Source: Gekko japonicus (lineage: Eukaryota). From it: a DNA stretch of 64,000 bases. Shown here in pieces: positions 46,601 to 49,600 of the stretch; the first letter of the stretch is position 1, and every line of letters starts with the position of its first letter. The stretch lies in the NCBI RefSeq assembly GCF_001447785.1, contig NW_015165855.1, forward strand, positions 492,338 to 556,337. The letters run 5' to 3'. The position numbers were made by a program.

Positions 46601-49600
46601 GGCTATCACCCCCAGACTAATAACTCAAAAGCAGATCTACAGTAGCCACTGCAAAAGACTCGGCGCATCATGGTAAATTATTCCTGACATTTCTAAAGGC
46701 ATTAAGCATTTTCCATCTGGCTTTTAAATACTCCAGCCCTTATCCAAAGATATGCGAATTCTGCAGCTTTAGCACAAGTATCAATATTACAAACGTTGGT
46801 TACCTTCTACGGGGCTGAGGGGTGGGAAAGTGAAACTTGTGTTATGAAGGGAGAGGGAACTGGGAGGGATGCATAGGAATCCACCATTTAAAAACAATTA
46901 TTCATAGTTAAAACATTTATATCCTGCTTTTACCCTCCCTGGGACTATGTCCCTTAATAATATATTTTAAAATGATACCTGATTGCAAGTTTATTTTATA
47001 TATTTCATTTATACCCCACCTTTCTCCACAACGGGGACCTAAAGAGGTTTACATAATTTTCTTCTCCTCCATTTTATCCTCGCAACAACTATGTGAGGTA
47101 GGTTAGCTGAGAGGGTACAACTGGCCCAAGGTCACCCGACAAGTTTCCATGGAAACCCGGCTCTCCTTGATTCCAGTTTGACATGTAGCCCCTACACAAC
47201 ACTGGCACAACACAGTGCAAGCAAATGATTGATTTCCCTATAATATCTTCTGTCCATGACACATTCCCCAAGTCAGAGCATGAAGTGAAGTTAAAATATG
47301 TGACATCTAAGATCAAGCACCATAACTATGATGCATTGTGTTTTCTATTATTGAGCAAAATATGAATATTAGGCCCCATTTCACCTCCCCACACTCACAA
47401 AGAACATGCATTCAGCTTGGCATCAGGACTGTAGCAAGAGACTCAACCAACTGATTATGTGCATTGGGCTCGATGTGGGTATCCTCTGGCTGCATGATGG
47501 GGGACCCCAATAGAGCTGTGCAAAAGAAAAGAAAAAACAACCCAACATTTTCCAGTTCAGGTCTATTGGAACCAATTTTTTTTTTTTGGTATTTTTGAAA
47601 AATCTCATTTTTTCCAGGTCCAATAGACCCAAACTGGAAAATGCGAGTTTAAAAAACAAACCAGACGGACCCTGGGGCTGGCTTGGCTTCTCCTGCAGTG
47701 CAGTTTAAATTGAGTTGCAGGAGAAGCTGGCCGCAGGATCTGCCTGTGGAGGGGAGGTCTCTCCTCACCGCATGCAGACCCAGGATCTGCGTGTGGCGGC
47801 TCTTGCCGCCCCAGTTGATCCTGGCTCCTCTTGCAGCTTGGTTTAAATTGAGCTGCAAGAGACGATCAGCTGGGGGAGGCCGGGAGCTGAGAGCTCCATC
47901 CTGTCTTCGCTGGGGCTGCCTCCCCAGCTCCTGCAGCCTCAACTGATCCTCAGTATAGCTGAATATACCCGAATAAAAGCTGAAAAATTGGCTTTTATTC
48001 AGGCTCAGCTATACTGGTAGCTGATCACATTCTCTAAATCTGTATTCATTTTAAACAACAGTATGCTATAAGCGGAGAAGCATTCTTCTGTGCACAAACT
48101 GAGAAAGACTAAGCTGCAACCTAGGGCTTTTCAGCATTCTCATTTTCCTCACTTCCCCCCACACATGTGTTTTGTTCCCTCTAGTGGTCGATTTAATCTT
48201 ACATTGCTTTATGTTCAGTATATCTCCCTGCAGATTTGAACTGCGGATTTTTATGCCAGACAAAAAGTGATGTAATATCTGATCAACCACTAGAGGGAGC
48301 AAAACTTGTTGTTAGCCGCCCTGAGCCATTGGGTAGGGTGGCATAGAAATCTCAAAAATAAATAAATAAATAAATAAATAAAACATGTGTGGAACAGAAA
48401 AAATACCACCCAAACTAACAGGAACACACAAGTGAGGAAAATGTTGAAAAGCCCTAGTTACATTGGAGTAGCCTTCCAGCAGATACTGTGAATGTCTCTC
48501 AGCAAGTGCCATCATGGTGTTTCTATTAGCAGCCATCATTTTCTGACTAGATTTTAAATGCTCTGGAATCCTCTACCATTTGAAAGAAAATCACCTCTGC
48601 CATGGAGCATTTAGATAAATTCTGCACTCTGTAAGTCATTATTATAAAATCGTACTAAATAAGTTTGCAGACTACCTCAGAAGATATTAGAACAGGATAA
48701 AACTTTTTTAAAAAGTCTGTAAAGAACACTCTTGACAACTATTGCTAAATCGAAGCAAAATTACAAAAGGCGAGCAAGCTCCTGAGGTTGGCGGAGGACA
48801 GGAGGGCCCGGCGTGATGTGGGCCATGGGGTTGCAAAGAGTTGGACTCGACTGTGCGACTGGACAACAACAAAAAACACAACATCCCAGTTAGGGTCAAA
48901 CAAGATGTGGCAGCATCTTTGTGGTAGCCACAAGGACACCACCATCATTCTAGTAACTTGGATATTCCTTAGTTCATTTTTCTTAAAAAAACATATATTT
49001 TTGTTCATTTCATATCATGCCAGATAATACATTCTATATAAAAAGGAAGAGCAGTATAATTGTGGTCTGATTATTCTTTTTCAGTCACAAATTAAAAGCA
49101 TCACTAAACAGCATGCAAACACTTTCTAGAATAAAAACTCACCATGTTCATAATAGCCACCTCAGTCTCTAAATTGTTTCCTTCATTGCCAGTCAAAGGC
49201 TCACCAGATTTGTCACCACAAAGACTGTTATCTACAATCTGGATATTGGGTGTCAGGAAAGTTAACTCATTCTTCCTGGATTCTGAGGACAGGCACAACT
49301 GGTAGGAATAAGGCAAAGTCCCATCTTCAAAGTTTGGTGGGAAGATGGCACCAGCACTTGAATGAGGAACAGGAGCAAAGCACTGTAGGAATTTGGGATT
49401 TCCTGATCGTCGAAGCTTCATCAGAATGGCCAAGATCACCGTCAAGAGGAACAAGAAGGAGATCAAAGCCAGGGCCAGCACCAGATAGAACTGCAGATCA
49501 GACTGATAGTCAGGACTGATGGACTGGGTCTTCATTTCTGGAAGGGCCTCTTGGAAGTTCTCTGCAAACACCAGGTTCAGAGTCACTGTAGCAGATAACG

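What the first reader, a model, noticed from the sequence alone, without database searches (positions are those of the whole stretch)
48121..48458. Palindromic MITE places a back-to-back (divergent) CTCF motif pair inside the Pcdh-gamma variable array
Seen: the inner arms give CCACTAGAGGGAGC on + (48287-48300) and CCACTAGAGGGAAC on - (48187-48174). Each has a TGTAA(T/G)A heptamer 9 nt upstream, the position of the CTCF upstream module. All nine promoter CSEs are on the minus strand. Known: mammalian Pcdh promoter choice depends on tandem same-orientation CSEs looping via cohesin to reverse-oriented downstream enhancer CBSs, and divergent CBS pairs are typical boundaries. Inference: the + site is convergent with the unit 8/9 and further upstream promoters, so it could be a TE-derived internal insulator that biases isoform choice. 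A palindromic TE would deliver such a cassette wherever it inserts.
Basis: partly seen in the sequence, partly recalled or inferred. Interest (0 to 1): 0.72.

Follow-up and report, generated by a model that had tools for sequence, protein, structure and literature searches.

The report
Palindromic repeat carrying paired CTCF motifs
A decayed, hairpin-shaped mobile-element remnant between two protocadherin-gamma exons of a gecko carries two strong, oppositely oriented matches to the CTCF binding motif; it could act as a chromatin boundary, but nothing shows that it is bound or was kept for that.

Summary
Window 48121-48458 is a 338-nt palindrome. It carries CCACTAGAGGGAAC on the minus strand (48174-48187) and CCACTAGAGGGAGC on the plus strand (48287-48300), back to back, inside an array of protocadherin-gamma variable exons. 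All nine promoter CSEs in the window are on the minus strand.

With a CTCF matrix recalled from memory, the two sites are the two best matches in the 64 kb (19.1 and 18.2 bits). The CSE cores score only -4.8 to 10.4 bits. One such site is only mildly unusual: 14 of 200 shuffled windows reach 18.2 bits. The second site follows from the palindrome.

The claimed upstream module sits in the right register but matches poorly (p 0.02 and 0.13). The motif is no better conserved between the arms than the rest of the element.

MITE status is plausible (sharp inverted ends, TA flanks, no coding capacity). It is unproven: there is no second copy in the window, and no vertebrate genome could be searched.

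In gene order the pair is reverse-forward. Published insertions of such pairs in the mammalian Pcdh-alpha cluster act as insulators. CTCF occupancy here is untested. This is an ordinary kind of feature (TE-borne CTCF motifs) in an interesting place.

The parts
48121..48458 (.). Whole palindromic (hairpin-type) non-coding element, 338 nt, 38% G+C
   Evidence: Inverted repeats I1, I4 and I6. Single long hairpin, z -9.0. No palindromy beyond the ends: best flank alignment scores 16 against a shuffle mean of 18.1.
48121..48154 (+). Left outer arm (terminal inverted repeat), preceded by TA if the element is taken to start at GGGC (48124)
   Evidence: sequence.
48430..48458 (+). Right outer arm (terminal inverted repeat), followed by TA if the element is taken to end at GCCC (48455)
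   Evidence: sequence.
48169..48214 (+). Left inner arm, holding the minus-strand CTCF-like site
   Evidence: I1: 46 nt, 80% complementary to 48260-48305.
48260..48305 (+). Right inner arm, holding the plus-strand CTCF-like site
   Evidence: I1.
48174..48187 (-). CTCF core match CCACTAGAGGGAAC. Same orientation as the promoter CSEs (forward with respect to the genes).
   Evidence: 19-nt window 48172-48190 scores 19.07 bits, p 2.2e-7, the best in the window. IUPAC hits.
48287..48300 (+). CTCF core match CCACTAGAGGGAGC. Reverse with respect to the genes, so convergent with the upstream promoters.
   Evidence: 19-nt window 48284-48302 scores 18.21 bits, p 3.9e-7, second best in the window. IUPAC hits.
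48197..48203 (-). TGTAAGA heptamer 9 nt before the minus-strand core; weak upstream-module candidate
   Evidence: The 9-mer TGTAAGATT at a 7-nt gap scores -6.75 bits, p 0.13, on a matrix built from the nine CSE modules.
48271..48277 (+). TGTAATA heptamer 9 nt before the plus-strand core; weak upstream-module candidate
   Evidence: The 9-mer TGTAATATC at a 7-nt gap scores -0.92 bits, p 0.02.
48306..48379 (+). Nested 74-nt retroposon-tail-like insert ending in (AAAT)n, flanked by AAAAC (48301-48305 and 48380-48384). It begins 5 nt after the plus-strand core.
   Evidence: The left arm has no counterpart. (AAAT)6.8 at 48356-48382. It aligns with two other tails at about 40095-40200 and 40712-40817.
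48394..48429 (+). About 33 nt of the right arm without a counterpart in the left arm (indel between the arms); the boundaries are approximate
   Evidence: Gap columns in the arm-to-arm alignment.
46423..46456 (-). Context: CSE of unit 7 (exon ORF 43691-46150), 1.7 kb downstream of the minus-strand site and in the same orientation
49104..51596 (-). Context: variable exon ORF of unit 8 (gamma-B type). Its 3' end lies 646 nt from the element.

Best explanation
The feature is an old, decayed palindromic non-coding repeat, most likely the remnant of a non-autonomous DNA transposon. It was later hit by a retroposon-tail insertion. It lies in the 2.9-kb spacer between a gamma-B-type exon (unit 8) and a gamma-A-type exon (unit 7) of a gecko Pcdh-gamma array.

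Because the element is its own reverse complement, one CTCF core motif in the ancestral arm now appears on both strands, 99 nt apart. Read in the direction of transcription the order is reverse then forward, the divergent 'boundary' arrangement.

I take the two cores to be binding-competent for CTCF. If they are occupied, I expect a passive pair of roadblocks to cohesin. The forward (minus) site would capture loops from the downstream enhancer region as a decoy promoter. The reverse (plus) site would pair with the CSEs of units 8, 9 and further upstream. The array would be split at this point.

Neither core holds the CpG of the promoters' CGCT box, so such binding would not be switched off by the methylation that governs promoter choice.

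Shown here: the anatomy, the motif strength, the orientation and the context. Inferred: the transposon origin, CTCF occupancy and any effect on isoform choice. Nothing here indicates that selection kept the motifs, so the pair is best seen as a by-product of the insertion.
For: Anatomy.

Motif strength:
- The two sites are the top two matches in 64 kb, at 19.07 and 18.21 bits, on a recalled matrix.
- They are the only 2 hits to CCASYAGRKGG.
- The plus core is identical at 13 of 16 positions (my count) to the IL3 insulator core CCACTAGGGGGAGACA, which also has A where the consensus has C. One of the three differences is at a position the paper gives as G/A (PMC12885311, passages).

Orientation: the CSE register sits on the minus strand. 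The review states that promoter sites are forward and enhancer sites reverse, that a bound promoter site insulates all upstream genes, and that methylation of the CpG in the CGCT box blocks CTCF (PMC7811963, passages).

Function by analogy: inserted forward, reverse and reverse-forward sites in Pcdh-alpha all insulate. Forward sites loop to the enhancer and reverse sites loop to promoters (PMC7087399, abstract and passages).

CpG: only three CpGs lie in the element (48189, 48244, 48317), and none is inside either 14-nt core.
Against: - There are no occupancy data of any kind.
- A site this strong is not rare by chance: 14 of 200 shuffled windows have one.
- The matrix and the IUPAC consensus were recalled from memory. 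Each site misses the strict consensus at one position.
- The upstream module is weak (-0.9 and -6.8 bits against 8.9-14.4 for the CSEs). Two papers report that losing it cuts binding about 3-fold and abolishes or weakens insulation (PMC12885311 and PMC11417384, passages).
- The motif is not specially conserved between the arms: 40 of 84 14-column windows have at most 1 mismatch.
- Transposon origin rests on shape alone. There is no second copy in the window, no target-site duplication longer than TA, and no paralogous empty site.
Confidence: 0.45

Rival explanations
1. Inert fossil. The element is a decayed repeat whose CTCF-like motifs are not occupied in vivo, or are occupied without measurable effect. 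The match is a chance property of the ancestral arm, mirrored by the palindrome.
For: - 14 of 200 shuffled windows hold a site of at least 18.2 bits.
- The motif is no better kept than the rest of the arms (40 of 84 windows).
- The upstream module is weak, and the literature says it matters for binding and insulation.
- The element has taken a nested insertion 5 nt from one core and about 33 nt of indel, as expected for unconstrained DNA.
Against: - These are the two strongest core matches in the window and far stronger than any promoter CSE core.
- The cores are CpG-free, so the methylation route described for the promoters' CGCT box does not apply to them.
- Both arm-to-arm differences inside the 19-nt windows fall at positions the matrix tolerates.
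Confidence: 0.4
2. Exapted insulator. The pair is kept by selection as an internal boundary that biases Pcdh-gamma isoform choice between the gamma-B units upstream and the units downstream.
For: Same as for the best explanation, plus its position exactly between a gamma-B-type and a gamma-A-type unit and the experimental precedent for reverse-forward pairs.
Against: There is no sign of selective retention. Only a single copy and a single species were seen. The upstream modules have decayed. A constitutive boundary inside an array that relies on stochastic choice might be costly (inference).
Confidence: 0.1
3. Not a transposon. The feature is a local inverted duplication, or a hairpin that matters as RNA. 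The element lies in the intron of all upstream-unit transcripts and could give a long hairpin, a possible small-RNA precursor.
For: It is a single copy in 64 kb. There is no target-site duplication beyond TA. The minus-strand RNA folds very stably, z -9.0.
Against: No Rfam family matches inside the element at E up to 1. The 74-nt insert and the indels break the stem. The inverted ends are sharp, and other small hairpin repeats lie next door, which fits a transposon-rich spacer.
Confidence: 0.05

Closest known systems
Transposon-borne CTCF sites (SINE B2 and other SINE waves, HERV, MER20 DNA transposon)
   Same: A mobile-element sequence carries a CTCF core motif and can seed new binding sites and loop anchors (review PMC7786948, passages).
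   Different: Those cases have ChIP evidence and many copies. As I recall them, those elements are not self-complementary and give one orientation per insertion; no call checked this. Here there is one copy with no binding data, and the palindrome gives both orientations at once. No report of a MITE-borne divergent pair turned up in searches of the held library.
Engineered reverse-forward CTCF site pairs inserted in the Pcdh-alpha cluster (Jia et al. 2020, PMC7087399)
   Same: A reverse-forward pair placed within a clustered-Pcdh regulatory domain. The forward site loops to the enhancer, the reverse site loops to promoters, and both insulate.
   Different: Those pairs were engineered, with proven CTCF/cohesin binding, in human cells and mice, and placed between the array and HS5-1. 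This one is natural, lies inside a gamma array of a gecko, and its binding is unknown.
Pcdh promoter CSE (CTCF site with a CGCT box)
   Same: The minus-strand site has the same orientation as the nine CSEs, and its candidate upstream 9-mer sits at the same 7-nt gap as in 5 of the 8 CSEs measured; the other 3 have an 8-nt gap.
   Different: It has no CGCT box (GAAC/GAGC instead), no TGCARTT module and no CCAAT-like box, and it is not at a promoter. Its core score is 18-19 bits against -4.8 to 10.4 for the CSEs.
IL3 insulator CTCF site (PMC12885311)
   Same: The core CCACTAGGGGGAGACA also has A at the position where the element's sites depart from the consensus. By my count 13 of 16 positions are identical to the plus site and 12 of 16 to the minus site.
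   Different: The IL3 site has a near-ideal upstream motif that is required for its insulation. The element's upstream 9-mers are poor.

Membership tests
MITE / non-autonomous DNA transposon | Terminal inverted repeats with sharp ends | tested here: met
   21 nt at 90% and 14 nt at 100% complementary. No palindromy beyond 48121/48458.
MITE / non-autonomous DNA transposon | Target-site duplication typical of a superfamily | tested here: inconclusive
   Only TA...TA, if the ends are set at GGGC/GCCC. There is no 8-nt or 3-nt direct repeat (sequence). The CTAG at both ends may belong to the inverted repeat.
MITE / non-autonomous DNA transposon | Short and without coding capacity | tested here: met
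   338 nt including a 74-nt nested insert. This is too short for a transposase.
MITE / non-autonomous DNA transposon | Many dispersed copies in the genome | not testable with these tools
   0 further copies in the 64-kb window (blastn). The DNA collections on hand hold no vertebrate genomes.
MITE / non-autonomous DNA transposon | Empty site in a paralogue or relative | tested here: inconclusive
   The flanks 46500-48120 and 48459-49110 have no paralogous match elsewhere in the window. Orthologues are not available.
CTCF binding site | Match to the core motif bound by zinc fingers 3-7 | tested here: met
   19.07 and 18.21 bits, the top 2 in the window (recalled matrix). 13 of 14 positions match the strict IUPAC consensus.
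CTCF binding site | Upstream motif (CTGCAGTTCC-like) bound by zinc fingers 9-11; present in 13-15% of sites | tested here: not met
   The register is right but the scores are -0.92 (p 0.02) and -6.75 bits (p 0.13), against 8.9-14.4 for the nine CSE modules. The consensus comes from PMC12885311. This motif is optional for membership.
CTCF binding site | Occupancy by CTCF and cohesin in cells | not testable with these tools
   No chromatin data for this species were on hand. One search (CTCF, gecko, transposable elements) listed 6 papers. None was a gecko CTCF binding study by title or abstract start; I opened only PMC7786948.
Divergent-CBS domain boundary / insulator | Reverse-forward orientation of neighbouring sites | tested here: met
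   The plus site at 48287-48300 lies upstream in gene order and the minus site at 48174-48187 downstream. The definition comes from PMC7087399.
Divergent-CBS domain boundary / insulator | Insulation of contacts across the site | not testable with these tools
   This needs Hi-C, Micro-C or 4C.
Exapted (selected) regulatory element | Motif kept better than the surrounding element | tested here: not met
   The arms are identical in 81 of 97 ungapped columns. 40 of 84 14-column windows are as well kept as the motif, and the binomial P(at least 13 of 14) is 0.30. The test is weak because it rests on one pair of arms only.

The most novel reading that the evidence does not exclude
A family of palindromic DNA-transposon remnants in geckos carries a ready-made reverse-forward pair of methylation-insensitive CTCF sites. 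This copy would be a constitutive internal boundary that splits the Pcdh-gamma variable array into two domains that choose promoters separately. It would be a natural counterpart of the engineered reverse-forward insertions in mammals, and a route by which one insertion could rewire isoform choice.
Probability: 0.1. Interest if true: 0.7.

Novelty: new member of a known kind. Interest (0 to 1): 0.35.

Why it matters
Promoter choice in clustered protocadherins depends on the number, order and orientation of CTCF sites. Engineered extra sites change which isoforms are used. If this natural pair is occupied, one transposon insertion would have created an internal boundary in a reptile array. It would also give a simple test of the loop-extrusion rules outside mammals.

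As it stands, the finding is a pair of strong motif matches in a decayed repeat. Such matches are common in vertebrate genomes and usually go without proven consequence.

Tried and rejected
- **Other copies in the window.** blastn with word size 7 found only the (AAAT)n run and retroposon-tail pieces, so no family could be built.
- **A paralogous empty site to fix the insertion boundaries.** The flanks match nothing else in the window.
- **A palindrome extending beyond the reported ends.** None: the best flank alignment scores below the shuffle mean. The AAGACTA/AAGGCTA likeness seen is chance.
- **Known RNA families.** Rfam over 47000-49200 at E up to 1 gave 10 weak hits. All lie outside the element and all are far below their gathering scores.
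- **The other CTCF-like hits as members of one repeat family.** They are not; each lies in a different context.
- **The relaxed pattern CCASYAGRKGGMRS** (2 hits against 0.05 expected). I loosened it after seeing the sites, so I do not use it as evidence. Searches are the fair versions.
- **Literature.** The anole Pcdh cluster paper (PMC2764143) has 0 occurrences of CSE, CTCF or transpos-. PMC11529993, PMC10013865, PMC4820808, bioRxiv 10.1101/2025.02.12.637905 and PMC3459987 mention both MITEs and CTCF but do not link them (passages).
- **Not used.** The genome-contig collection holds only bacteria and archaea, so I ran no scan of it.
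Full report
**Observation**

- CCACTAGAGGGAAC lies on the minus strand at 48174-48187, and CCACTAGAGGGAGC on the plus strand at 48287-48300.
- TGTAAGA (48203-48197, minus) and TGTAATA (48271-48277, plus) each lie 9 nt before the core.
- The inverted-repeat search gives outer arms of 21 nt at 90% and 14 nt at 100%, and inner arms of 46 nt at 80%.
- The minus-strand RNA of 48121-48458 folds as one long hairpin of -124.1 kcal/mol, z -9.0, and none of 100 shuffles folds as well.

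**Context**

The window holds nine open frames of 611-860 aa, all on the minus strand.
- The four I scanned (of the nine) carry cadherin, Cadherin_2 and/or Cadherin_C_2 domains.
- The frame above the element (49104-51596, 'unit 8') is closest to solved Pcdh gamma-B4 (767 bits). The frame below it (43691-46150, 'unit 7') is closest to gamma-A9 (640 bits).
- The closest named relatives of unit 8 are gecko proteins called protocadherin gamma-B-like: Gekko japonicus 88-90%, Euleptes europaea 89%, Paroedura picta 87%. Anolis proteins are 70-72% identical. The host is therefore a gekkotan lizard.
- I searched each variable exon on its own. I did not build or search any joined, spliced model.
- The N run at 35968-36015 was left as it is.

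A regular-expression scan finds nine CSEs (TGCARTT, spacer, GTGYCRCTRT). All nine are on the minus strand and none on the plus strand. Their low ends are at 3690, 11983, 17815, 25486, 34474, 39562, 46423, 51839 and 61558 (eight of them are aligned).

The element lies 646 nt below the unit 8 frame. Its minus-strand site lies 1.7 kb above the unit 7 CSE.

**Anatomy**

The right arm carries a 74-nt insert (48306-48379) that the left arm lacks.
- It ends in (AAAT)6.8 and is flanked by AAAAC on both sides.
- It aligns with two other tails in the window, near 40095-40200 and 40712-40817.
- It looks like the 3' end of a retroposon. A likeness to squamate SINE tails is recalled only.
- It begins 5 nt after the plus-strand core.

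With the insert removed, the arms agree in 81 of 97 ungapped columns, with 63 gap columns. These include about 33 nt present only in the right arm. A longer alignment that included the flanks gave 96 of 122.

The Jukes-Cantor distance between the arms is 0.19. If the arms started out identical, the element is old, but MITE arms need not start identical.

The palindrome stops at the reported ends.

**Is it a MITE?**

For:
- sharp inverted ends;
- small size and no coding room;
- 38% G+C;
- TA on both sides if the ends are set at GGGC/GCCC;
- other small hairpin repeats next door.

Against or open:
- no second copy in the window;
- no duplication longer than TA;
- no paralogous empty site;
- no vertebrate genome among the collections on hand.

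Copy number, the family consensus and the orthologous site therefore all stayed unchecked. The superfamily cannot be named.

**Motif strength**

I scored the window with a CTCF count matrix written from memory (JASPAR MA0139.1; its column sums of 908-913 look right, but it is recalled and needs re-checking).
- The two sites score 19.07 bits (p 2.2e-7) and 18.21 bits (p 3.9e-7). They are the best two of 33 hits at p<1e-4, and the next best scores 15.9 bits.
- In 200 dinucleotide shuffles of the window, 14 held a site of at least 18.2 bits and 8 a site of at least 19.07 bits. One site of this strength in 64 kb is therefore only mildly unusual.
- The second site is explained by the palindrome.
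- The 11-mer consensus CCASYAGRKGG hits only these two places (expected 0.58; 10 of 100 shuffles give 2 or more).
- The strict 14-mer with one mismatch allowed gives 3 hits against 0.69 expected. Both sites have A where the consensus has C.
- A published functional insulator core, CCACTAGGGGGAGACA from IL3, has the same A. By my count it is identical to the plus site at 13 of 16 positions (PMC12885311, passages).

**Upstream module**

PMC12885311 (passages) gives the upstream motif as CAGCTGTTCC- or CTGCAGTTCC-like, with a flexible linker.

The window's own CSEs carry TGCARTTMN 7 or 8 nt before core position 4. I measured the gap for 8 of the 9 CSEs; unit 4's module entered the matrix, but its gap was not printed.

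A matrix built from those nine 9-mers scores the CSE modules at 8.9-14.4 bits. It scores the element's 9-mers in the same register at -0.92 bits (TGTAATATC, p 0.02) and -6.75 bits (TGTAAGATT, p 0.13). The position is right and the sequence is poor.

This matters for function. Mutating the upstream motif cut IL3-site binding about 3-fold and abolished its insulation (PMC12885311). An alpha-globin site lost insulation and nearly all binding without the motif (PMC11417384, passages).

**Comparison with the CSEs**

In the shared register the nine CSE cores score -4.8 to 10.4 bits. By core alone the element's sites are therefore much stronger than any promoter site here. The CSEs, in turn, have the strong upstream module and the CGCT box.

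The element has only three CpGs (48189, 48244, 48317), and none lies inside a 14-nt core. The review PMC7811963 (passages) says that methylation of the CpG in the CGCT box blocks CTCF at Pcdh promoters. I infer that binding to the element would escape that switch.

**Orientation and mechanism**

The same review says that all promoter sites are forward and the downstream super-enhancer sites reverse. It also says that a bound promoter site insulates all genes upstream of it.

Here the minus strand is forward. In gene order the element reads reverse (plus site), then forward (minus site), which is the divergent boundary type.

Jia et al. [quoted passage not shown] Forward sites looped to the enhancer, and reverse sites competed with the enhancer for promoters.

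All of this presupposes occupancy, which I could not test.

**Retention**

The two 14-nt cores differ at one position, and the 19-nt windows at two. Both differences fall at positions the matrix tolerates.

However, 40 of 84 14-column windows of the arm alignment are equally well kept, and the binomial chance of at least 13 of 14 is 0.30. There is no sign of special retention. The test is weak, because it has one pair of arms to work with.

**Known and new**

Transposon-borne CTCF sites are well known: SINE B2, HERV and the MER20 DNA transposon (review PMC7786948, passages).

I found no report of a palindromic MITE delivering a divergent pair, and none on CTCF in geckos, in searches of the held library. 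Subscription journals are not covered by that library. I read no supplements.

**Verdict**

- 0.45: a binding-competent reverse-forward pair that arose as a by-product of a palindromic insertion.
- 0.40: an unoccupied fossil.
- 0.10: a selected boundary.
- 0.05: not a transposon, or an RNA hairpin.

Noticed in passing
window 13723-17849: Unit 3 looks disrupted. An in-frame stop at 15637-15639 separates minus-strand frames 13723-15636 and 15637-16596. Its CSE (17815-17849) lies about 1.3 kb further from the coding frame than in the other units. It may be a pseudogene with an insertion.
   Followed up: partly
window 37057-39358: The unit 6 frame of 621 aa (37493-39358) continues in another frame (37057-37677). 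This is a frameshift, from either a pseudogene or an assembly error. The N run at 35968-36015 lies 1.0 kb below the lower frame.
   Followed up: partly
window 63222-63998: The 3' part of a tenth variable exon runs off the high end of the window (minus strand, open at its 5' end).
   Followed up: no
window 25486-25495 and 46423-46432: The CSEs of units 4 and 7 read GTGTCACT instead of GTGYCGCT, so the CpG of the CGCT box is lost. Unit 7 also has the weakest upstream module (8.9 bits) and a 3-nt gap before its CCAA-like box. Even so, it has the best CSE core score (10.4 bits).
   Followed up: partly
window 47546-48018: Several other small hairpin repeats lie just below the element: 47546-47643 (25-nt arms, 92%), 47686-47727, 47809-47875 and 47951-48018. 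The spacer looks rich in small inverted-repeat elements.
   Followed up: no
window 13057-13075 (-), 26579-26597 (-), 55064-55082 (+): These are the next-best CTCF-like matches outside promoters (15.6-15.9 bits on the recalled matrix). They lie in unrelated sequence contexts.
   Followed up: partly
window 51540-51990 vs 61260-61710, and 11700-12150 vs 34240-34690: The promoters of units 8 and 9, and those of units 2 and 5, are nearly identical. Matching CTCF-like hits recur inside their exons. This points to recent duplication or gene conversion between units.
   Followed up: no
window 40095-40200 and 40712-40817 (-): Two more copies of the retroposon-tail-like sequence that is nested in the element lie about 620 nt apart.
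   Followed up: partly
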